A stretch of 64,000 bases of DNA from Candidatus Omnitrophota bacterium (lineage in GTDB: Bacteria; Omnitrophota; Omnitrophia; Omnitrophales; Aquincolibacteriaceae). A program made the position numbers and the translations under genes. The notes beneath the pieces were generated by a model that did not search any database, was not told where the DNA came from, and saw only the letters and a program-made list of their open reading frames with translations. This document shows positions 1 to 63,251 of the stretch, in pieces (the stretch's first letter is position 1; every line of letters begins with the position of its first letter). Location of the stretch: contig JBAYGD010000003.1 of NCBI GenBank assembly GCA_041666865.1, positions 51,642 to 115,641 on the forward strand, read 5' to 3'.

Positions 1-343
1 GGCCCGCGGCAAAAGCCTCGCTGAACCGCTCGAACCCGCAGATCCGGATGTTGCGTTCAAGAAGCGCGCGTGTCGTCGCCGGAATCCGGAGCACCTCGGC
101 AAACATCCGGCCAAAATGGCCGTATTGTCGGCGCACCAGGGCCCAGCGTTCCTTCTCGCTCAGGTCCCCTCCAAGGGCCGCCTTAAGATCGGCATAGGCC
201 ACCGAGCGCCGGCTGTGCAGGTAAAAAGCTGCCCATCCGAGCAGGGAGCCCACCGCACCGGCAAGGCGCTCCGGCATCCATTGAAAAAACCGGGCGGCAA
301 GCTGCAGAGCCCCACAGCCGAGAACATCAAGAAGGCGTTTCAT
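1..343 (-). CDS. Lipid A biosynthesis acyltransferase (LpxL/HtrB lysophospholipid-acyltransferase family), 3' end beyond window start (partial)
   Basis: Not in ORF track (edge-truncated). Manual minus-strand translation from ATG 343..341 gives MKRLLDVLGCGALQLAARFFQWMPERLAGAVGSLLGWAAFYLHSRRSVAYADLKAALGGDLSEKERWALVRRQYGHFGRMFAEVLRIPATTRALLERNIRICGFERFSEAFAAG..., which fits the LpxL N-terminal architecture (hydrophobic anchor, then AYADL...E.ER motif region). Alternative in-frame ATGs at ~358 and ~373 lie inside the repeat. Confidence 0.55.
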   Translation of the reverse strand, partial: MKRLLDVLGCGALQLAARFFQWMPERLAGAVGSLLGWAAFYLHSRRSVAYADLKAALGGDLSEKERWALVRRQYGHFGRMFAEVLRIPATTRALLERNIRICGFERFSEAFAAG

Positions 344-1751
344 TCGGACAGTTTTCATCCGGACGGTTCTCATCCGAACAGTTCTCGTCCGGACGGTTCA
401 CATCCGGGAGGTTCACATCCGGACGGTTCTCATCCGGGAGGTTCTCATCTGGACGGTTTTCATCCGAACGGTTCTCATTCGGACGGTTTTCATTCGGACG
501 ATTTTCACGCGTCCGGTTTTCATTCGGACGGTTATCCCGCGACCGGTTCCCATTCGGACGGTTATCCCGCGACCGGTTCCCGTTCGGACGGTTATCCCGC
601 GACCGGTTCCCGTTCGGACGGTTATCCCGCGGGCGGTTCCCGTTCGGACGGTTATCCCGCGGGCGGTTATCATTCGGACGATCTTCACGCGGGCGGTTCT
701 CGCGCGGCAGTCCGCCGATCCAAGCGGTCAATTTAGAAATCAGGGCATCTTCGCCGGAGGAAATGCGCAGGCGCGTGGCCAAGATCAGCGGATTGAGGAT
801 TTCGGCGATTAACTTCGGGCTCCGGCAATAATCCTTTTCGGTGGTGATAATCTCATCGACCGAGGCCGACTCGCTGACACGCTTGATTTCCGTGAAGTCT
901 CCGGCCGTAAACGCGTGATGGTCGGGAAACTCGAAGTTCCGGACCGGCTTGATGCCGCAGTGGGACAAAAGCGCCTGAAAGGAGCGCGGCGTGCCGATGC
1001 CGGCAAAGGTCGTGACCCGCTGATTGCGCAGGCGGTCGATCATCACGCGCATTCTTTTTTTCGCCCGGTAGAAAAACAGGGGCTCCAGCAGGGCCTCCAC
1101 CAAAAGCGCTTTCGGGGCAGCCTTTGAGAGTTGGGCCCGAAGCCCCTCGAGCTGTTTGGCCTCGAGCAAGTTCGCATGGGTGATGACCACCACGTGGGCG
1201 CGATCCAGCAGCGTGAGGGGCTCGCGCAGGATTCCCCGGGGAATCAGCTTCCCGTTTCCGAAGGGGTTCAGGGCATTGAGGGTGATGATTTCCAAATCGC
1301 GACGGACCGGGAAATGCTGGAACCCGTCGTCCAGGACGGCCAAGCGGATGGGGGCTTGAGCAGCCATGCGAAGCGCCACCTCGGCCCGGTTCGCTCCGAC
1401 TCCGAAAAGGGCCCTGGGAAGCTGACGCTTCATTTGTTCGATTTCATCGTGACAGTAGCCGCGCGTCAGCACAAGGGGCGTCGCGCCGCGCTCGCCGGCT
1501 CGGCGGCACAAATACTCGACAAGCGGGGTTTTTCCCGTCCCTCCCCACGAAAGATTCCCGACGCTGATGACGGGAAACGGAAGCTTGGTTCTCTTGAGCT
1601 TGTCACGCTCATAAAGAGAGCGCCGCAACGCGGCGGCGGCTCCGTAAATCCACGCCGCCATTTCCAGGACGGGGCCCCAAAGCCTGGCCCCGAGGCCTCT
1701 CTCATTGCCTTCCGCTAGCCGCCGGAAATAATTTCTGATCGCATACCCCAT
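327..1751 (-). CDS. lpxK: Tetraacyldisaccharide 4'-kinase LpxK with ~140-aa C-terminal pentapeptide-repeat tail
   Basis: P-loop SVGNLSWGGTGKTPLVEYL and overall LpxK-like sequence. ORF is 474 aa against a typical ~330; C-terminus is (D/E)NRP(N/D) x ~25 encoded by the tandem repeat. Confidence 0.8.
   Translation of the reverse strand: MGYAIRNYFRRLAEGNERGLGARLWGPVLEMAAWIYGAAAALRRSLYERDKLKRTKLPFPVISVGNLSWGGTGKTPLVEYLCRRAGERGATPLVLTRGYCHDEIEQMKRQLPRALFGVGANRAEVALRMAAQAPIRLAVLDDGFQHFPVRRDLEIITLNALNPFGNGKLIPRGILREPLTLLDRAHVVVITHANLLEAKQLEGLRAQLSKAAPKALLVEALLEPLFFYRAKKRMRVMIDRLRNQRVTTFAGIGTPRSFQALLSHCGIKPVRNFEFPDHHAFTAGDFTEIKRVSESASVDEIITTEKDYCRSPKLIAEILNPLILATRLRISSGEDALISKLTAWIGGLPRENRPREDRPNDNRPRDNRPNGNRPRDNRPNGNRSRDNRPNGNRSRDNRPNGNRSRDNRPNENRTRENRPNENRPNENRSDENRPDENLPDENRPDVNLPDVNRPDENCSDENRPDENCPNETPS
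340..720. repeat. Tandem repeat, 15-bp unit (consensus CGGACGGTTCTCATC, ~25 copies), with five near-identical 30-bp super-units at 521-670
   Basis: Seen directly in the sequence. Period of 5 codons keeps all frames open: the plus frame reads HPDGS repeats, the lpxK frame reads ENRPD repeats. Confidence 0.9.
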
Positions 1752-7028: not shown

Positions 7029-7057
7029 CGCAGGGGCACGGCATGCCGTGCCCCTGC
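7029..7057 (-). terminator. Perfect GC-rich hairpin (13-bp stem, GCAGGGGCACGGC-ATG-GCCGTGCCCCTGC) downstream of the RDD gene
   Basis: Seen in sequence; on the minus strand it is followed by CTATTTAAAAG (moderately U-rich). Confidence 0.4.
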
Positions 7058-7098
7058 GTCTCCTTACATCAAATCAATGCCAATCGAGATACTAGTAG

Positions 7099-15980: not shown

Positions 15981-16553
15981 TTATGATTTTCTTTTTTTGG
16001 AGCCGGAAGGGGTCTTCGTGACCGCCTTTGTTTTGAGCTCGGGAACCGACGCCCCCGGAGCCCGAAGCTCGATTTTGCGCGAAAGGGCGATGATGCCGGT
16101 GCGCACCGTTTCGAGAATCCCGTACGGCTTGAGGAGCTCGATCATCGCGTCGATTTTCCCCTCGCCTCCCGTAACTTCCACGGTCAAGCTTTCGGGCTGA
16201 ACGTCGAGGATCTTGGCCCGGAAGGTGTTGGCGATTTGCATGACATCGTGCCGGCTCGAGGCGCTCGCGTTCACCTTGACGAGCACCAGCTCGCGGTCGA
16301 TGATGTCCTGGTCCGTGATGTCCACGACCTTGATCGTATCCACCAGCTTCTCGAGCTGTTTGACGATCTGGTCCAGGATCCTCTCGTCGCCGCGCGCCAC
16401 GATGGTCATGCGCGAAACCGTCGGGTCTTCCGTTTCTCCGACCGTGAGGCTGTCGATATTAAACCCCCGGGCCGAAAAAAGCCCCGCCACTCGGGCCAAA
16501 ACCCCGAAGTGATTTTCCACCAAAACCGAAATGGTATGCTGTAAGTCATTCAT
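15981..16553 (-). CDS. ilvN: Acetolactate synthase small (regulatory) subunit
   Basis: ACT domain HTISVLVENHFGVLARVAGLFSARGFNIDSL. Confidence 0.9.
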   Translation of the reverse strand: MNDLQHTISVLVENHFGVLARVAGLFSARGFNIDSLTVGETEDPTVSRMTIVARGDERILDQIVKQLEKLVDTIKVVDITDQDIIDRELVLVKVNASASSRHDVMQIANTFRAKILDVQPESLTVEVTGGEGKIDAMIELLKPYGILETVRTGIIALSRKIELRAPGASVPELKTKAVTKTPSGSKKRKS

Positions 16554-16799
16554 GTCATCTCCAATAGATCAAAACGTCAAGTTTTGATCTGCTTATTGTC
16601 CCGAAACATAGGTTTCGGGACTTGTGCTTCGTTGCTTTTCATGCCGCAGCCATGTTATTGCCCATAGGGGCCATGCGCGGCACCAAACCCGTTCGGTTTG
16701 GTGCGTGATCATCACAATGACTGCTTGCGATCATCACGGCACCAAACCCGTTCGGTTTGGTGCGTGATCATCACAATCACCGTTCGTGATTGTGTATGA
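16554..16799. repeat. Hairpin-rich repetitive element in the ilvB-ilvN spacer: 41-bp direct repeat x2 (16677-16717, 16736-16776) plus at least five perfect stem-loops
   Basis: Stem-loops at 16565-16589 (10-bp stem), 16597-16620 (10 bp), 16679-16703 and 16738-16762 (GCACCAAACC-CGTTC-GGTTTGGTGC), 16771-16793 (9 bp, same CGTTC loop); GTGATCATCAC palindromes occur three times. Confidence 0.6.
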
Positions 16800-18491
16800 T
16801 CACGCCATGTCCATAACCTGGTCCAGCGCATTGCCGGCCGGAACCATCGGATAAACATTGGCGTCCTGACAAACCTTCAGATGAACCATCACCGGCCCGT
16901 CGTGCGCAAGAGCCTCCTGGAGCGCCGGAACCACCTGACTTTTTTCCGTCACCCGGATCGCCTTGATCCCGTAAGCCTCGGCGATTTTCCCGAAGTCCGG
17001 ATTCGATGACGCAAGCTGGCTGGCCGAATACCGTTCCCGGTAAAACAGCTGCTGCCACTGCCTCACCATCCCGTGGTGGGAATTGTCCATGAGGATCAGC
17101 TTCACCGCCACTTTGTTCGCGGCCGCGGTTGCAAGCTCGGTCAGCGTCATCTGGAACGAGCCGTCTCCGTCGATGCAAAGAACCGTGTCCTGCGGACATC
17201 CGAGCTTGGCACCGATGGCCGCCGGGAAACCGTAGCCCATGGTTCCAAGACCGCCCGACGTAATCATGGTGCGCGGCCTCTCGAAGCCGTACCACTGGGC
17301 CGTCCACATTTGGTGCTGGCCGACGCCGGTCACGACCACCGCTTTGTGACCGGTCAGCTCGCCGAGTTTTTCGATGACGTATTCCTGACGGATGTCGTTT
17401 GTGTCCTGCTTGTATTTCATCGGATGTTTCGACTTCCACTCGACGATCTGGGCCAGCCACTCACCCATCTGCGGCCGGAGGTCGCCAAGGCGCTCCGTCA
17501 GGGCGCGCAGCGCCGGCTTCACATCGCCCAAGATAGGATAATGCACTCTCACGACTTTGGCGATCGAGGCCGGATCGATGTCGATATGGACGATTTTCGC
17601 GTTCGGCGCGAACTTGTCGATTTTTCCCGTCACCCGGTCGTCAAACCGGGCCCCGACCGAAATCAAAAGGTCGGAACCCTGGACTGAATAGTTGGCGTAG
17701 TGGGTCCCGTGCATGCCGAGCATGCGCAAAGAGGAGGGATGCGTCTCCGGAAAAGCCCCCAAGCCGAGGACAGTCGTCGTCACGGGAATCCCGGTTTTTT
17801 CCACCAATTCAAAAACTTCTTTTGCGGCATTGCCCGCGATCACCCCGCCTCCCACATAAAGACACGGCCTCCGGCTCTCCCGAATGGCCTTCGCGGCCGC
17901 TTCCACCTGAGCGCCGAACACGCCGGCGTCATAGTCGGGCTCGGGCCGGTAGCTTCGGATCGAAACCTTTTCGGGCCATTCAAACTCCACTTCCTGGCGG
18001 CTCACATCCACGGGAAAATCGATCAGGACCGGTCCGGGACGGCCGGTGCGCGCAATGTAAAAAGCTTCGCGGACGATCCGGCTAATGTCCTTCGCGTTCT
18101 TGACAAGATAGTTGTGTTTGGTCACCGGGCGCGTGATGCCGACCACGTCGGCCTCCTGAAACGCGTCGGAGCCGATAGCATGCGTGGCGACCTGCCCCGT
18201 GATGCAAACCAGCGGAACCGAGTCCATGTGAGCGGTCGCAAGCCCCGTGACCGTGTTCGTCGCTCCGGGCCCCGAAGTCACCAAACAGACGCCGACACGG
18301 CCTGTCGCGCGCGCGAAGCCGTCGGCCATGTGCGTCGCCCCCTGCTCGTGGCGCACCAAAACGAATTTGAGCTTGGAGTCCAGGAGGGCATCAAAGGTCG
18401 GCAGAATGACCCCTCCGGGGAGTCCGAACAAATAATCCACCCCTTCCATTTCCAAACTTTTGATCAATATCTGGGCGCCTGTCATTTTCAT
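16800..18491 (-). CDS. ilvB: Acetolactate synthase large subunit
   Basis: 563 aa; TPP-binding motifs (GDGSFQM), AHAS family. Confidence 0.9.
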   Translation of the reverse strand: MKMTGAQILIKSLEMEGVDYLFGLPGGVILPTFDALLDSKLKFVLVRHEQGATHMADGFARATGRVGVCLVTSGPGATNTVTGLATAHMDSVPLVCITGQVATHAIGSDAFQEADVVGITRPVTKHNYLVKNAKDISRIVREAFYIARTGRPGPVLIDFPVDVSRQEVEFEWPEKVSIRSYRPEPDYDAGVFGAQVEAAAKAIRESRRPCLYVGGGVIAGNAAKEVFELVEKTGIPVTTTVLGLGAFPETHPSSLRMLGMHGTHYANYSVQGSDLLISVGARFDDRVTGKIDKFAPNAKIVHIDIDPASIAKVVRVHYPILGDVKPALRALTERLGDLRPQMGEWLAQIVEWKSKHPMKYKQDTNDIRQEYVIEKLGELTGHKAVVVTGVGQHQMWTAQWYGFERPRTMITSGGLGTMGYGFPAAIGAKLGCPQDTVLCIDGDGSFQMTLTELATAAANKVAVKLILMDNSHHGMVRQWQQLFYRERYSASQLASSNPDFGKIAEAYGIKAIRVTEKSQVVPALQEALAHDGPVMVHLKVCQDANVYPMVPAGNALDQVMDMA

Positions 18492-41742: not shown

Positions 41743-41781
41743 CAAAAAAAGAGCCACATCCGCTTTCCCGGATGTGGCTCC
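41743..41781 (-). terminator. Rho-independent terminator for the cytochrome c gene: 12-bp perfect stem (GAGCCACATCCG / CGGATGTGGCTC) followed by U7 on the minus strand
   Basis: Seen in sequence; a second perfect hairpin (12-bp stem) lies just downstream at 41706-41742. Confidence 0.5.
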
Positions 41782-46168: not shown

Positions 46169-46558
46169 TTACTTCTTCTGCGGGGGGTCCTGCGGAAGCT
46201 TCTGCCAGGCAAATTCGGGATAGATCACCGGCTCGTACCGGGCCGGATAGGGAATCAGGAAAGTGACCATTTCATACACGCCCGTGAGAGCCCGGCCCAC
46301 GGCGTAGCAACCGCCGCGGCCTGCCGCAAGAGCCCAGCTTGGAGGAAAAGTTTCGCGTGTCTGCTCTTTCTGAAATTCGGTCGTCAGATCGATCGGGGAA
46401 AGGGCGACATTGAGGAAGCCGCGCTGAAGTTTTCGGACCGGGGAGCCTTCCGCCGCGATTTGCCCTTGCTCGCCAGGGCAAAGCTCTGAGGCCGCCGCCT
46501 GCGCGGAAAAAATCAAGCCCATGACCGTCGAAAGGACGAGCAGTTTTCTGAATTTCAT
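46169..46558 (-). CDS. Small secreted protein, exosortase-system-associated-like (resembles TIGR04073 family)
   Basis: Signal peptide MKFRKLLVLSTVMGLIFSAQAAA; motifs KLQRGFLNVALSPIDL and GRALTGVYEMVTFLIPYP recalled from that family (from memory, not verified). Confidence 0.4.
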   Translation of the reverse strand: MKFRKLLVLSTVMGLIFSAQAAASELCPGEQGQIAAEGSPVRKLQRGFLNVALSPIDLTTEFQKEQTRETFPPSWALAAGRGGCYAVGRALTGVYEMVTFLIPYPARYEPVIYPEFAWQKLPQDPPQKK

Positions 46559-46601
46559 AGCGGCCGATACTCTAACAAAAATCGACTCCCGAGGCAAGTT
46601 G

Positions 46602-46776
46602 CGTCTAACCCGGATGTCTCATCGCCAATGAGACATCCGCTCGTAAGAGCTTCCGAGCAAAGTGGTTAATCCTTTGCGAGGAAGGGTTAGTCTTTTGCAC
46701 TCCGTTTTTTTGTGAGTGCAAAACTTTGGCTGTACTTCATACAGCCAAAGCGACTTTCTCATTGATTCGCAAAATC
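46602..46776. repeat. Array of four unrelated perfect palindromes/stem-loops: 46602-46628 (11-bp arms), 46683-46713 (10 bp), 46715-46739 (10 bp), 46744-46776 (14 bp)
   Basis: Seen directly; three have exactly 5-nt loops/spacers. Lies between the stop of the sigma-54 activator gene and the start of the small secreted-protein gene. Confidence 0.6.
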
Positions 46777-46791
46777 AATGAGAAAGTCGGG

Positions 46792-48426
46792 CTAGGTTTT
46801 GTTTTCGCTGTCTGATTTGAGGCCGTACCTTTTGATCTTGTAGCCAAGGATCCGCTCCGTCACCGCGAGCATCTTAGCCGCCTTGCGCTGGTTGCCACCC
46901 GCCTTGCGCAGCGCTTCCTCGACCATCCGCTTTTCGAGGGCCTCCACGGCCCCCGTAAGGGAAGCCGGCGGAGCCCCCGGCGCGTTTCTGGTCTCTGCAG
47001 ACGATAAAGCCTCACCGCCTCCAAGCACCGTCTTGACTTCCGGGATCGGAAAATGCTCCGTCTCGAGGGTATCCGAAGTGGAAAGCACCACGGCCCGGGC
47101 CATCGCGTTCTCAAGCTCGCGAACATTGCCCGGCCAAGAATAATTCACGAGCGACTCCATGGCTGCATCCGAGATATAGCGGACCTTCTTGCCGTTTTCT
47201 TCGTTCGCTTTTTTCAGAAAATGGTTCACCAGGAGAGGAATGTCTTCCTTTCTTTCCCGAAGGGCCGGAAGAAAAATCGGCACCACATTGAGGCGGTAGT
47301 AAAGGTCCTCGCGGAAACGTTTGGCGGCCACCTCCTCCTCGAGATTTTTATTCGTCGCCGTAATCAGGCGCAGGTTCACGCGAATCGTCCCGGTCCCTCC
47401 GACGCGTTCAAACTCTTTTTCCTGAAGAACCCGCAGGAGCTTGACCTGGGTGCTCATCGGGATGTCGCCGATTTCGTCCAAAAAAAGCGTCCCGCCGTTG
47501 GCCAGCTCAAAACGCCCCATCTTGCTGGCTACGGCGCCCGTAAAAGCGCCCTTCTCGTAGCCGAACAGCTCGCTTTCAAGCAGGGTGTCCGGAAGTGCTG
47601 CGCAGGACACTTTAATAAACGGCTTTCCGGCCCGGTCGCTCGCGTAGTGGATCGCGTGGGCCACAAGCTCCTTGCCCGTTCCGCTCGCCCCGCGCAGGAG
47701 GACGGTTGCGGGAGTTTGACTGACCAGCTGGATCGAGGCATAGACGTCGGCCATGCGTTTCGACTCGCCAAGAATATTCGAAGGCCGGAACTTCTTCTGG
47801 AGCTCCTGCTGGAAGATCGTATTCTGCTGTTCGAGCTTCTGCCGCTCCCGCTTGCGCAGCCGGTGGAGCCGCACGGCCTGAGCCACGAGGGAACTGATGA
47901 GGGTGAGAAGCCGGACGTCTTCTTCGAAAGAAACATTTTCGCGGAAAAGCCGGTCCGCGCTCAAGACCCCGACTGTTTTTTGGTCCACTTTGATGGGAAC
48001 GCAAATAAAAGAAACGTTCCGGCGGGCGATGTCGCGCGAACGCGTCCGGTTCAAAAACAGGGGCTCGTCGCCGATGTTGGGAACAACGATGGGCTCCCCC
48101 GTCGCGACGACCTTGCCGGTAATTCCCTCGCCGACGCGGTAGCGGCCCCTTTGAATCGCCTTGGTGTCGAGACCGTGCGCCACTTCGATCGCAAGCTCAT
48201 TGGTCTCGTCATCGAGCAGGCACAGAGTCCCGCGCTCCATGCCCATCTTCTCGTGGAGAATGGTGAGAATCTGCCTCATGTTGCTCTCGAGTTCAAGCGA
48301 AGCATTGACGGCTTTCGCAATCTCATAGAGCGTGGCAAGTTCGACGAGCTCGCGCTCGAGCTTGGCTTCGTGCTTTGCGGGGCCATATGTCGGCTCGTCG
48401 GCGGACCCGGCCTTGCTGTTTTTCAA
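46792..48426 (-). CDS. Sigma-54-dependent transcriptional activator with N-terminal GAF sensor domain (NifA/FhlA-like)
   Basis: GAF domain, AAA+ sigma-54 interaction domain (GASGTGKELVAHAIH, GAFTGA, ESELFGYEKGAFTGA), C-terminal Fis-type HTH. Confidence 0.85.
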   Translation of the reverse strand: MKNSKAGSADEPTYGPAKHEAKLERELVELATLYEIAKAVNASLELESNMRQILTILHEKMGMERGTLCLLDDETNELAIEVAHGLDTKAIQRGRYRVGEGITGKVVATGEPIVVPNIGDEPLFLNRTRSRDIARRNVSFICVPIKVDQKTVGVLSADRLFRENVSFEEDVRLLTLISSLVAQAVRLHRLRKRERQKLEQQNTIFQQELQKKFRPSNILGESKRMADVYASIQLVSQTPATVLLRGASGTGKELVAHAIHYASDRAGKPFIKVSCAALPDTLLESELFGYEKGAFTGAVASKMGRFELANGGTLFLDEIGDIPMSTQVKLLRVLQEKEFERVGGTGTIRVNLRLITATNKNLEEEVAAKRFREDLYYRLNVVPIFLPALRERKEDIPLLVNHFLKKANEENGKKVRYISDAAMESLVNYSWPGNVRELENAMARAVVLSTSDTLETEHFPIPEVKTVLGGGEALSSAETRNAPGAPPASLTGAVEALEKRMVEEALRKAGGNQRKAAKMLAVTERILGYKIKRYGLKSDSENKT

Positions 48427-62333: not shown

Positions 62334-63251
62334 TCAATAATGAACGTTCTTGCCGTAAAAACGCCATTGGAAAAGCGTGAAGGCGAACACAATCACGAAC
62401 AGCACCCACGCGATAGCCGCCGCGTACCCCATGTTGTGCCACTGGAACGCGTTGTTATACAAATAGAAAATAATCGTCGTCGTGGACCCGTTCGGACCGC
62501 CGCCGGTCATGATATACGCCGGATCAAAGCCCGCCTGAAAGCCGCCGATGATACTCATGATGGCGATAAAAAAAGTCGTCGGCGAAATCTGCGGCCAGGT
62601 CACGGCCCAAAATTTCTGCCACCCGTTGGCCCCGTCAACCTCCGCGGCATCGTAATAGTCCCGCGGCACTCCCTGCAGGGCGGCCAGGTAAAGGATCATG
62701 TTGTACCCGCCGACCATTTGCCAGACTCCCATGATGATCAGCGCCGGTTTGGCCCAGCGCTCGTCGGTCAGCCACTGGGGTCCGGTCAGACGCAGGTTCA
62801 GGAGTTCGCCCGCCTTGGCGATGAACTGATTAAAAACCCCGAACTCGGGATTATAAATCAGCCTCCACAGCATATAAATCGCCACCCCCGAGCACAGGGT
62901 CGGCAGGAAATAAACTGTCCGAAAAAAAACGATTCCCCGGAGTTTCTGGTTCAGGGCCAGGGCCAGGATGAGCGAACCGGCCATGCTGAAAGGAATGCTC
63001 ATCATCAGATAAACCGTGTTCCCGCAGTATTGCCAGAAATAGGGGTCGCGCAGCAGCGCGACAAAATTAGCCCCGCCGACAAACCGCGGCGGCCAGGACA
63101 AAAGGTCCCACTCCACAAAGCTCAAAAGCAGGGACGCCATCACCGGCACCGAAGTAAAAACCAAAAAACCCAGAAGGTTCGGCAGCAGGAAAAGATACGC
63201 CGCCATCGTTTCTTTGCACGAGTGGCAATGGAACCATGAGAGCTTTTTCAT
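62334..63251 (-). CDS. Carbohydrate ABC transporter permease (MalF/UgpA-like)
   Basis: 6-TM permease; start at ATG 63251 (MKKLSW...) in ATGA overlap with the clpX stop. Confidence 0.7.

What the first reader, a model, noticed from the sequence alone, without database searches (positions are those of the whole stretch)
16554..16800. Unusual 246-bp ilvB-ilvN intercistronic spacer filled by a hairpin-rich repeated element
ilvB and ilvN normally abut or overlap. Here they are separated by 246 bp made almost entirely of perfect stem-loops. These are AGATCAAAAC-GTCAA-GTTTTGATCT, GTCCCGAAAC-ATAG-GTTTCGGGAC, and a 41-bp direct repeat present twice (CGGCACCAAACC-CGTTC-GGTTTGGTGCGTGATCATCACAAT). That direct repeat itself contains a 10-bp-stem hairpin plus the palindrome GTGATCATCAC. 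A further hairpin, CACAATCAC-CGTTC-GTGATTGTG, reuses the same CGTTC loop. On the mRNA these lie between the two cistrons. Candidate roles are an inserted REP/MITE-like element, an RNA-stability or processing module, or a cis-regulatory RNA that uncouples ilvN from ilvB.
Basis: seen in the sequence. Interest (0 to 1): 0.5.

Follow-up and report, generated by a model that had tools for sequence, protein, structure and literature searches.

The report
Conserved hairpin-array spacer between ilvB and ilvN
In an uncultured Omnitrophota bacterium, the two subunit genes of acetolactate synthase are separated by 246 bases of stacked stem-loops; two of these are conserved with compensating base changes in related genomes, so they are most likely an mRNA-level insulating or stabilising element rather than junk, an assembly error or a dispersed repeat.

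Summary
The spacer is 16554-16799 on the minus-strand ilv operon of a Candidatus Omnitrophota MAG. It holds 5 of the roughly 10 perfect hairpins (stem of 9 bp or more) in the 64-kb window, plus an exact 41-nt repeat in two 59-nt tandem units. Fold z-scores are -12.6 and -10 on the two strands. A second assembly carries the identical spacer.

The spacer is modular. Hairpin A (16762-16805, 19 bp, GAACG loop) base-pairs the ilvB stop codon. It recurs in two relatives, with 6 of 19 pairs changed on both sides. H1 (16566-16590), just 5' of the ilvN Shine-Dalgarno sequence, recurs in two relatives with 3 double changes and 2 G·U pairs that are valid only on the mRNA strand. Synonymous sites between these genomes are saturated, so both anchors are under selection. 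The middle (B/B') arose by tandem duplication and turns over fast: related spacers are 10, 11, 21, 32, 67, 294 and 490 bp.

Covariance models found these hairpins only in ilvB-ilvN spacers across 172 kb of clade DNA. There is no Rfam match, U-tailed terminator, promoter, target-site duplication or terminal inverted repeat.

Best reading (inferred): intercistronic protective and uncoupling RNA structures of the malEF/papBA type. Genome-wide copy number could not be tested.

The parts
16800..18491 (-). ilvB (acetolactate synthase large subunit, 563 aa). The stop codon TGA is at 16800-16802.
   Evidence: ORF. TPP_enzyme_N/M/C domains on the identical gene in L001. The C-terminus ...VMDMA is conserved in all relatives.
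16762..16805 (-). Hairpin A. The outer 10-bp stem is 16796-16805 with 16762-16771. There is a bulged A at 16795. The inner 9-bp stem is 16786-16794 with 16772-16780. The loop is GAACG on the mRNA (16781-16785). The last ilvB codon and the TGA stop lie in the 5' arm.
   Evidence: Inverted repeats I9 and I10. Homologues are at L038 9797-9840 and L025 2517-2560. Of 19 pairs, 6 changed on both sides, 1 cell is broken and none changed on one side only. Model R2 finds it only at these three places in 171.7 kb.
16739..16763 (-). Hairpin B (10-bp stem, GAACG loop on the mRNA), directly 3' of hairpin A on the mRNA. It shares positions 16762-16763 with the outer stem of A.
   Evidence: Pair I5. Its homologue in L025 (2559-2583) has 4 of 10 pairs changed on both sides. 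In L038 the loop and 3' arm CCGAACGGGTTTGGTGCCG are identical, but the 5' arm is broken.
16705..16738 (-). Linker between B and B'. It is a degenerate duplicate of the 3' half of hairpin A and carries repeated GTGATGATC(A/G)C motifs.
   Evidence: Direct repeats D1 and D4. In the MFE structure it forms the top of a long B-B' composite stem.
16680..16704 (-). Hairpin B', an exact second copy of B.
   Evidence: Pair I4. The 41-nt exact repeat is at 16678-16718 and 16737-16777. Model R1 hit, E = 1.9e-7.
16678..16795 (.). Two 59-nt tandem units (16678-16736 and 16737-16795): a 41-nt identical core followed by diverged tails.
   Evidence: Family D1: 54 nt, 91% identity, spacing 59.
16622..16679 (-). 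Middle segment without perfect hairpins. It has a weak imperfect stem, then an A-rich stretch (AUGAAAAGCAACGAAGCACAA on the mRNA) that is mostly unpaired in the MFE. This is the candidate endonuclease entry site, by inference only.
   Evidence: MFE dot-bracket. No homologue was recognised in relatives.
16598..16621 (-). Hairpin H2 (10-bp stem, loop CUAU on the mRNA).
   Evidence: Pair I7. It is conserved in the 67-bp spacer of L003-L006, with one deletion that bulges a G. It is degenerate in L038.
16566..16590 (-). Hairpin H1 (10-bp stem, loop UUGAC on the mRNA). It ends 3 nt 5' of the ilvN Shine-Dalgarno sequence.
   Evidence: Pair I6. Homologues are in L003 (9963-9987) and L038 (10055-10079). 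Of 10 pairs, 3 changed on both sides and 2 are G·U pairs valid only on the mRNA strand. The loop and flanks are conserved.
16559..16562 (-). The ilvN Shine-Dalgarno sequence GGAG, 5 nt before the ATG at 16553-16551. It is unpaired in the MFE.
   Evidence: Sequence and fold.
15981..16553 (-). ilvN (acetolactate synthase small subunit, 190 aa).
   Evidence: ACT, ACT_AHAS_ss and ALS_ss_C domains. It is 100% identical to a protein named 'MAG: acetolactate synthase small subunit [Candidatus Omnitrophota bacterium]'.

Best explanation
The spacer is a locus-specific, modular array of stem-loops that acts on the ilv operon mRNA. It has two anchor modules under purifying selection.

- Hairpin A (plus B) starts at the ilvB stop codon, which is itself base-paired in the stem.
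- H1 (plus H2) sits immediately 5' of the ilvN ribosome-binding site.

Between them lies filler that grows and shrinks by tandem duplication and deletion (B', linker).

Proposed mechanism (inferred, not shown):
1. The 246-nt untranslated stretch breaks translational coupling, so ilvN is translated from its own exposed Shine-Dalgarno sequence.
2. The dense helices keep the untranslated RNA from being a loading site for endonucleases or Rho.
3. After an endonucleolytic cut in the unstructured middle, or by RNase III in the 19-bp A stem or the long B-B' composite stem, A/B act as a 3' barrier to exonucleases for the ilvB segment, and H2/H1 act as a 5' protective structure for the ilvN-ilvC-leuA segment.

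The result would be that the levels of the two acetolactate synthase subunits can be set independently. This is the malE-malF and papBA type of differential decay.
For: Shown:
- Extreme, non-random structure.
- Position inside a same-strand operon whose other gaps are 12-80 bp.
- Between the window and L003, L025 or L038, four-fold degenerate sites are about 40% identical, against about 33% expected by chance. Neutral DNA should therefore be unalignable.
- Yet hairpin A is 38/44 identical between the window and L038, and all six differences form three compensatory pairs. One of these pairs the middle base of the stop codon (TGA to TAA, with C to T opposite).
- The A-B module compared with L025: 51/70 identical; of 27 pairs, 7 changed on both sides, 1 is broken and none changed on one side.
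- The H2-H1 module compared with L003 is about 85% identical by mean column identity.
- H1 across three lineages keeps its loop and flanks, has 3 double changes, and has 2 G·U pairs that would be A·C mismatches on the other strand.
- The differences between the window and L025 show no codon periodicity (read), and no ORF is shared.
- The ilvN Shine-Dalgarno sequence is unpaired.
- No sigma-70-like or sigma-54-like promoter, and no U-tailed terminator, lies on the mRNA strand in the spacer.
- ilvB-ilvN spacers in other lineages are also often structured (z -4 to -5).

Established knowledge: 3' protective hairpins after an upstream cistron, and RNase E cuts just 5' of a protective hairpin before a downstream cistron, reshape operon stoichiometry (PMC5927463, read).
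Against: - There are no expression, RNA-end or half-life data.
- Only 3-4 lineages carry each module.
- Close relatives lack them: L024 has a 21-bp spacer, L027 11 bp, L028 32 bp, and L003 lacks A/B. They are therefore dispensable.
- Both strands fold about equally well.
- A, B and H2 are pure Watson-Crick with no G·U, which fits DNA-level palindromy as well as RNA function.
- In L025, GAACG-loop hairpins occur in both orientations.
- In L038 the B stem is broken while its sequence is kept.
- Between the sister genomes L025 and L038 (four-fold sites 75% identical), hairpin A differs at 13 of 44 positions yet stays paired. That is about as fast as neutral change, which is hard to reconcile with classical two-step compensation.
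- Whether this organism has RNase E/G, RNase Y, RNase III or Rho was not checked.
Confidence: 0.42

Rival explanations
1. The array is a by-product of mutation with no function of its own. Replication slippage makes the tandem units. Intra-strand template switching creates perfect palindromes in a permissive untranslated gap, and keeps correcting them.
For: - Tandem duplications are evident here and in relatives: 59-nt units, 63-nt units and a 96-nt repeat in L025, and a 42-nt duplicate of the ilvB 3' end in L026.
- Spacer length varies from 10 to 490 bp among relatives. Spacers of 294 and 490 bp occur between genomes that are 97.5% identical in protein.
- Stems are perfect Watson-Crick and fold equally on both strands.
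- Zero one-sided changes against 7 double changes, and about neutral-rate change of a still-paired hairpin A between L025 and L038, are what single-event template switches would give. PMC8794818, found, proposes exactly this for RNA hairpins.
Against: - Template switching cannot explain conservation of unpaired sequence at saturated divergence. The GAACG loop of A, the UUGAC loop of H1, the flanks CAGAU and AUCUAU, and the 19-nt identity of the B loop plus 3' arm between the window and L038 are all kept.
- The modules keep fixed positions relative to the ilvB stop codon and the ilvN Shine-Dalgarno sequence.
- The G·U pairs in H1 favour one strand.

This rival is plausible for the B' and linker filler, but less so for A and H1.
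Confidence: 0.22
2. It is a specific regulatory RNA that binds a trans-acting factor. The C-GAACG-G hairpins and H1 would be recognition sites for a protein (or a small RNA) that controls ilvN translation or processing, possibly switched by the ribosome that terminates on the stop codon buried in hairpin A.
For: - Seven different stems share the invariant loop and closing pair C-GAACG-G.
- The B loop and 3' arm are conserved in L038 even without the stem.
- The stop codon is base-paired in A in both the window and L038, with compensation.
- The 3' arm of A is duplicated 59 nt downstream, which allows alternative pairings.
- In L025, GAACG and CGUUC loops are complementary and could form loop-loop contacts.
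Against: - No candidate factor is known.
- The hairpins for one search were chosen because they are hairpins with this loop, so the covariation there is partly by construction.
- In L025 hairpin A lies 14 nt after the stop codon, so the overlap is not universal.
- The modules are absent in close relatives.
- There is no Rfam family.
Confidence: 0.15
3. It is a REP/BIME-like or MITE-like repeated palindromic element that inserted between the genes.
For: - Short palindromes in tandem and, in L025, in alternating orientation, in an intercistronic position. This is the classic REP/BIME setting (PMC12306157).
- Presence varies among relatives.
- A second, unrelated hairpin cluster lies at 46598-46791.
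Against: - There is no other copy in the 64-kb window or in about 108 kb of related loci, by exact, loop-based and covariance-model searches.
- At E. coli-like REP density, which I recall as about one per 8-10 kb (not checked here), about 6-8 further copies would be expected in the window.
- The five stems have different sequences, so there is no common consensus.
- No GTAG or CGTC tag is present at the stem bases (read).
- There are no terminal inverted repeats or target-site duplication.
- Homologues sit at the same locus in diverged genomes.
- Nothing was found in plasmid, phage or viral collections.
Confidence: 0.08
4. The palindromes work as DNA: cruciforms or operators for a DNA-binding protein, or Dam/SeqA-type GATC clusters.
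For: - The palindromes are perfect and strand-symmetric.
- There are six GATC sites in 246 bp, which puts the spacer in the top 1.6% of windows.
Against: - Operators conserve sequence, not complementarity, whereas here the stems covary.
- GATC is absent from the L025 spacer and is common genome-wide at 8.3 per kb.
- No promoter is nearby.
- The G·U pairs in H1 would be mismatches in DNA hairpins on the other strand.
Confidence: 0.06

Closest known systems
REP/BIME stem-loops in the malE-malF intercistronic region of E. coli (3' protective structures; Newbury et al. 1987, as cited in PMC5927463)
   Same: Stable palindromic stem-loops sit directly after the upstream cistron of an operon, in tandem. 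No U-tract follows. Their presence varies between relatives. The proposed effect is a barrier to 3'-5' exonucleases, and hence a different level of the two gene products.
   Different: REPs are one consensus sequence dispersed in hundreds of copies. Here the stems differ from each other, and no copy was found outside the ilvB-ilvN spacer in 172 kb. There is no GTAG or CGTC tag. Hairpin A overlaps the stop codon.
papBA-type 5' protective hairpin after an intercistronic RNase E cut, and the 'programmed differential decay' structures of Dar & Sorek 2018 (PMC5927463)
   Same: A conserved hairpin lies just upstream of the downstream cistron's ribosome-binding site, preceded by an unstructured stretch. 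The structure is conserved between related species, with raised sequence conservation.
   Different: No cleavage site or RNA end is known here. The organism's RNases are unknown. The enterobacterial structures usually lie inside coding sequence, whereas these lie in a long dedicated spacer.
Intercistronic stem-loops of the Rhodobacter capsulatus puf operon (mRNA decay terminator; Chen et al. 1988, as cited in PMC5927463)
   Same: A cluster of several strong hairpins between cistrons that segments the stability of an operon mRNA.
   Different: There is no sequence relationship, and function is untested here.
Hairpins created and maintained by template-switch mutations (PMC8794818)
   Same: Perfect stems, double changes without one-sided intermediates, and rapid change with pairing kept.
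   Different: That work describes a mutational origin, not a function. It does not account for the conserved loops and flanks seen here.
RNase III processing stems between cistrons (for example phage T7 early mRNA, rpsO-pnp; from my own knowledge, not checked here)
   Same: About two helical turns of near-perfect duplex (hairpin A, 19 bp with one bulge; the B-B' composite stem) between cistrons.
   Different: There is no evidence of cleavage, and no internal-loop signature was examined.

Membership tests
REP / BIME (repetitive extragenic palindromes) | Multiple dispersed copies per genome | tested here: inconclusive
   There were no copies outside the spacer in the 64-kb window or in about 108 kb of related loci. 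The whole genome was not available, and the metagenome scan did not contain the source contigs.
REP / BIME (repetitive extragenic palindromes) | Copies share a common consensus sequence | tested here: not met
   The five hairpins have four unrelated stem sequences. Only B and B' are copies, and only the GAACG loop is shared by A and B.
REP / BIME (repetitive extragenic palindromes) | Conserved GTAG or CGTC tag at the base of the palindrome (Di Nocera et al. 2013, cited in PMC12306157) | tested here: not met
   Read from the sequence: no GTAG or CGTC abuts any stem. The only CGTC lies in the H1 loop, on the plus strand.
REP / BIME (repetitive extragenic palindromes) | Associated RAYT (Y1 transposase) gene in the genome | not tested
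   Only 8 of the roughly 55 window proteins were scanned against Pfam. None was a transposase, and the rest of the genome is out of reach.
MITE | Terminal inverted repeats plus a target-site duplication flanking the insert | tested here: not met
   The only candidate duplication, ACATGGC, is no better than chance: 361 of 500 shuffles score as high. The insert's ends (GTGATCAT... and ...GGGCAATA) are not inverted repeats.
Any Rfam family (riboswitch, T-box, leader, sRNA) | Match at or above the family's gathering score | tested here: not met
   There were 0 matches in the whole window at gathering thresholds. On the spacer, only sub-threshold chance hits appeared (19 bits or less, against gathering scores of 37-98).
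Intrinsic (Rho-independent) terminator or attenuator | G+C-rich hairpin followed by a U-run on the transcribed strand | tested here: not met
   The scan finds no such site on the minus (mRNA) strand inside 16554-16799. The two sites in the spacer are on the plus strand, which has no upstream gene.
Intercistronic protective mRNA structures (functional class: malEF, puf, papBA) | Stable structure between cistrons of one transcript, conserved in relatives | tested here: met
   It lies in a same-strand operon, with z -12.6 and covariation in A and H1, at saturated synonymous divergence. That the operon is one transcript is assumed from gene spacing.
Intercistronic protective mRNA structures (functional class: malEF, puf, papBA) | RNA 3' or 5' ends at the structure, and different half-lives of the flanking segments | not testable with these tools
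   This needs transcriptome, end-mapping or decay data.
Bacterial SECIS (selenocysteine insertion element) | In-frame UGA followed by the hairpin, with the UGA conserved | tested here: not met
   L038 has TAA at the homologous position and L025 has TAA upstream of the hairpin. All IlvB proteins end at ...VMDMA.
Integron attC site | Outer core sites RYYYAAC ... GTTRRRY bracketing an imperfect palindrome | tested here: not met
   Read: the AAAC...GTTT motifs lie at the loop-proximal centre of the stems, not at the outer ends. No integrase was seen among the 8 window proteins scanned.

The most novel reading that the evidence does not exclude
Hairpin A (with the ilvB stop codon paired in its stem), the C-GAACG-G hairpins and H1 would together form a previously undescribed, clade-specific riboregulator in Omnitrophota. 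A factor that recognises the invariant loops, or the terminating ribosome itself melting hairpin A, would switch the spacer between alternative folds. This would set ilvN translation or processing, that is, the stoichiometry of the catalytic and regulatory subunits of acetolactate synthase.
Probability: 0.12. Interest if true: 0.6.

Novelty: new variant of a known kind. Interest (0 to 1): 0.4.

Why it matters
If the reading is right, this gives a clean natural example, in a phylum with no genetics, of how an operon's fixed 1:1 transcription is re-tuned after transcription. The elements involved are conserved 'anchor' hairpins at a stop codon and at a ribosome-binding site, with a rapidly expanding and contracting hairpin filler between them.

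The series of related spacers (10 to 490 bp, some between genomes 97.5% identical in protein) is also a useful test bed for a separate question: whether perfect hairpins are maintained by selection or by template-switch mutation.

It does not open a new category of biology. No known family matches, but the kind of element, intercistronic stem-loops, has been known since the 1980s.

Tried and rejected
1. Target-site duplication or a relic of the ilvB 3' end inside the window's spacer. The shared ACATGGC(T) is at chance level, and all IlvB proteins end at VMDMA. Rejected for the window, although L026 does carry a clear 42-nt duplicate.
2. Dispersed copies. Exact 41-mer search, 11-mer sharing (a 14-mer at 62387 is an ordinary coding match), loop-anchored hairpin scans and covariance models R1 and R2 found nothing outside ilvB-ilvN spacers.
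3. Public collections.
   - The genome-contig scan with IlvN gave only one useful relative.
   - The metagenome scan with CAAANCGAACGGNTTTGGTGCCG returned three copies of an unrelated coding sequence and not the source contigs, so it is uninformative.
   - Viral contigs gave one chance coding hit and nothing else.
   - Plasmids and phages gave no match.
4. Rfam: nothing.
5. No sigma-70-like or sigma-54-like promoter, and no terminator on the mRNA strand.
6. Small conserved ORF or read-through extension. The differences show no codon periodicity, no ORF is shared, and UGA is not conserved.
7. GATC/Dam cluster: not conserved in L025.
8. Relationship to the second hairpin cluster at 46598-46791: no shared sequence.
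9. A protein search with the IlvB C-terminal half, meant to find closer relatives on broken contigs, listed only fragments of 73% identity or less.
Full report
**1. What is in the sequence**

The window comes from an uncultured Candidatus Omnitrophota bacterium. Its IlvN is 100% identical to a protein of that name. On the minus strand lies a long same-direction gene row: KDPG-type aldolase, a 322-aa protein, ilvB, ilvN, ilvC, leuA, aroE, a prepilin peptidase, aroC and aroK. The gaps in this row are 12-80 bp, except for the 246 bp between ilvB (stop codon at 16800-16802) and ilvN (ATG at 16553).

It turns the last hairpin into a 19-bp stem with one bulged A, and it places the final ilvB codon and the TGA stop inside the helix (pairs I9 and I10).

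In the whole 64-kb window, perfect hairpins with a stem of at least 9 bp occur at about ten places, five of them here. The RNA folds at -131 kcal/mol with z = -12.6. The opposite strand folds nearly as well, at -122 kcal/mol with z = -10.

An ENA contig with different ends carries the identical spacer, and a k=31 Logan contig breaks inside it. The spacer is therefore real, and it is the kind of sequence that breaks short-k assemblies.

**2. Relatives show that the spacer is modular**

I fetched the ilvB-ilvN junction of every close relative I could reach.

| Locus | Spacer (bp) | IlvN identity to the window |
|---|---|---|
| L037 | 10 | 73% |
| L027 | 11 | 83% |
| L024 | 21 | 81% |
| L028 | 32 | 82% |
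| L003-L006 | 67 | 84% |
| L026 | 75 | 71% |
| L036 | 91 | 74% |
| L033 | 93 | 76% |
| L007 | 128 | 68% |
| L038/L039/L040 | 294 (identical in three samples) | not separately computed |
| L025 | 490 | 80% |

The window, L003 and L025/L038 are about equally distant from each other, at 83-86% amino-acid identity over four genes. Their four-fold degenerate sites are only 36-41% identical, against about 33% expected from composition. Synonymous change is therefore saturated. L025 and L038 are sisters: 97.5% amino-acid identity and 75% at four-fold sites.

Against that background, three pieces of the window's spacer are recognisably conserved.

(a) Hairpin A
- Window against L038: 38/44 identical, and the six differences are three compensatory pairs. 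One of them is the middle base of the stop codon (TGA to TAA), with the opposite C changed to T.
- With L025 added: 6 of 19 pairs changed on both sides, one broken cell, and none changed on one side. The GAACG loop is invariant.
- In L025 the hairpin sits 14 nt after the stop codon instead of over it.

(b) Hairpin B
- Against L025, 4 of 10 pairs changed on both sides.
- In L038 the 5' arm is broken, yet the loop plus 3' arm (19 nt) is identical to the window.

(c) H2-H1
- The whole 67-bp spacer of L003 aligns to the ilvN-proximal 72 nt of the window at about 85% mean column identity.
- H1 recurs in L038 with three double changes.
- The two one-sided changes (one in L003, one in L038) are G·U pairs on the mRNA strand. 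They would be A·C mismatches on the other strand.
- The H1 loop (UUGAC or UCGAC) and the flanks are kept.

The stretch between these anchors has no recognisable homologue in relatives. In the window it consists of B', a degenerate copy of the 3' half of A, and a 58-nt weakly structured segment. It is built by tandem duplication: 59-nt units in the window, and 63-nt units plus a 96-nt repeat 283 nt apart in L025. It differs grossly even between the sister genomes L025 and L038.

**3. Is it a dispersed repeat?**

Not in the DNA I could examine.
- The 41-mer search, allowing up to 3 mismatches, matched only the two copies inside the spacer.
- Hairpins with GAACG or CGTTC loops occur only in the ilvB-ilvN spacers of the window, L025 and L038.
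- Two covariance models were run over 171.7 kb of clade DNA, both strands. One models the generic C-GAACG-G hairpin and the other models hairpin A. Significant hits lie only in those spacers.
- The five stems in the window have four unrelated sequences.
- No GTAG or CGTC tag, terminal inverted repeat or target-site duplication is present.

The limitation is that my single metagenome scan returned only an unrelated coding sequence, and not even the source contigs. Low-copy dispersal elsewhere in the genome therefore remains untested.

A second hairpin cluster in the window lies at 46598-46791, between a sigma-54 activator gene and a 142-aa ORF (z = -13). It shares no sequence with this one.

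**4. What it is not**

- It matches no Rfam family.
- It has no U-tailed terminator and no sigma-70-like or sigma-54-like promoter on the mRNA strand.
- It holds no conserved small ORF, and the differences between the window and L025 show no codon periodicity.
- It is not a SECIS, because UGA is not conserved.
- It is not a Dam/GATC cluster conserved in relatives.

**5. How it most likely works**

Shown:
- The array is extreme in structure.
- It is locus-specific within the sample.
- Two modules are under purifying selection, with base-pairing preserved through double substitutions.
- One module is anchored at the ilvB stop codon and the other at the ilvN Shine-Dalgarno sequence, which is itself left unpaired.
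- For H1, the mRNA strand is the favoured strand.

Inferred:
- These are cis-acting mRNA structures.
- The long untranslated gap abolishes translational coupling.
- The helices shield the untranslated RNA.
- After a cut in the unstructured middle, or in the long duplexes, A/B would serve as a 3' barrier for the ilvB segment and H2/H1 as a 5' protective structure for ilvN-ilvC-leuA.

This follows the malEF and papBA models summarised in PMC5927463. ilvB-ilvN spacers of other bacteria, where present, also tend to be structured (z about -4 to -5). The window and L025 are the extremes, at z about -9 to -10 by mononucleotide shuffles.

I put this reading at about 0.4.

**6. Why I am not more confident**

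- A, B and H2 are pure Watson-Crick stems, and the two strands fold equally well.
- In L025, GAACG-loop hairpins occur in both orientations.
- Several close relatives do without any of it.
- Between the sister genomes L025 and L038, hairpin A changed at 13 of 44 positions, about the neutral rate, and yet stayed paired.

These points fit a mutational engine: slippage plus template switching that creates and corrects palindromes (PMC8794818). That engine very likely produces the filler. It cannot by itself explain the conserved loops, flanks and positions of A and H1.

A specific loop-recognising factor, or a termination-coupled switch at hairpin A, is the more novel possibility, and it is not excluded.

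**7. Verdict**

- The premise about the normal ilvB-ilvN arrangement is too strong.
- The REP/MITE reading is not supported in the sample.
- The RNA-level module reading is favoured.

This is a new, clade-restricted variant of a long-known kind of element, intercistronic stem-loops. It is of moderate interest, mainly because of two features:
- the stop-codon-embedded, covarying hairpin;
- the natural series of expanding and contracting spacers.

Noticed in passing
window 46598-46791: A second intercistronic hairpin cluster. Three perfect hairpins (stems of 12, 11 and 17 bp) and further helices are enclosed by a long-range stem, with z = -13. It lies between a sigma-54 activator gene (46792-48426, minus strand) and a 142-aa ORF with no Pfam match (46169-46597, minus strand). 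It shares no sequence with the ilv spacer.
   Followed up: partly
window 340-699 (inside ORF 327-1751, minus strand): A 15-nt tandem repeat of about 23 copies, with 60-nt and 90-nt super-periods. It encodes a C-terminal pentapeptide array (NRPxD/NRPNG...) in a 474-aa protein.
   Followed up: partly
L026 553-660: In a 71%-identical relative, the 75-bp ilvB-ilvN spacer is a 42-nt duplicate of the ilvB 3' end (37 of 42 positions identical; 0 of 500 shuffles score as high), separated from the original by a 24-nt G+C-rich insert. The old stop codon and Shine-Dalgarno sequence are retained downstream. This looks like a footprint of slippage or insertion at the same junction.
   Followed up: partly
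L007 4966-5105: The 128-bp ilvB-ilvN spacer of a 68%-identical Omnitrophota relative is closed by a perfect 13-bp long-range stem (CCCCGTTAGAAGC ... GCTTCTAACGGGG) that brackets the whole gap. Its z is about -4.4.
   Followed up: no
L026 1270-1582: A 313-bp gap between ilvN and ilvC in this relative. It is A+T-rich with short repeats (AACCTTTCC x3). The window has only 12 bp at this position.
   Followed up: no
L025 2511-3000 and L038 9803-10096: Sister genomes (97.5% protein identity) have ilvB-ilvN spacers of 490 and 294 bp that align only in part. L025 carries GAACG-loop and CGTTC-loop hairpins on the same strand, so the loops are mutually complementary.
   Followed up: partly
window, whole: GATC occurs 8.3 times per kb, against 3.7 expected from base composition. 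The ilv spacer has 6 in 246 bp.
   Followed up: partly
window 7029-7058 and 41751-41780: Two isolated strong perfect hairpins (13-bp G+C-rich stem with loop CATG; 12-bp stem with loop CTTTCC) in intergenic gaps. They may be transcript-end structures.
   Followed up: no
window 16518-16541 (ilvN codons about 5-12): The 5' coding region of ilvN contains CACCAAAACCG on the plus strand, a near copy of one arm of hairpin B. A 19-nt stretch is 79% complementary to B and B' (D3, I2, I3). By shuffling this is not significant, with 67 of 500 shuffles scoring as high.
   Followed up: partly
L003 1-6398: The closest relative has two very large adjacent ORFs (more than 1178 aa and 1248 aa) with no Pfam hits, upstream of the aldolase-ilv gene row. 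The window has uvrB at that position.
   Followed up: no
tool behaviour: metagenome contigs: The metagenome DNA scan did not return the JGI contigs that demonstrably carry the pattern (Ga0451520_0014299 is L025, which contains CAAATCGAACGGATTTGGTGCCG). That sample is therefore apparently not in the scanned collection, and negative results from the scan are weak.
   Followed up: no
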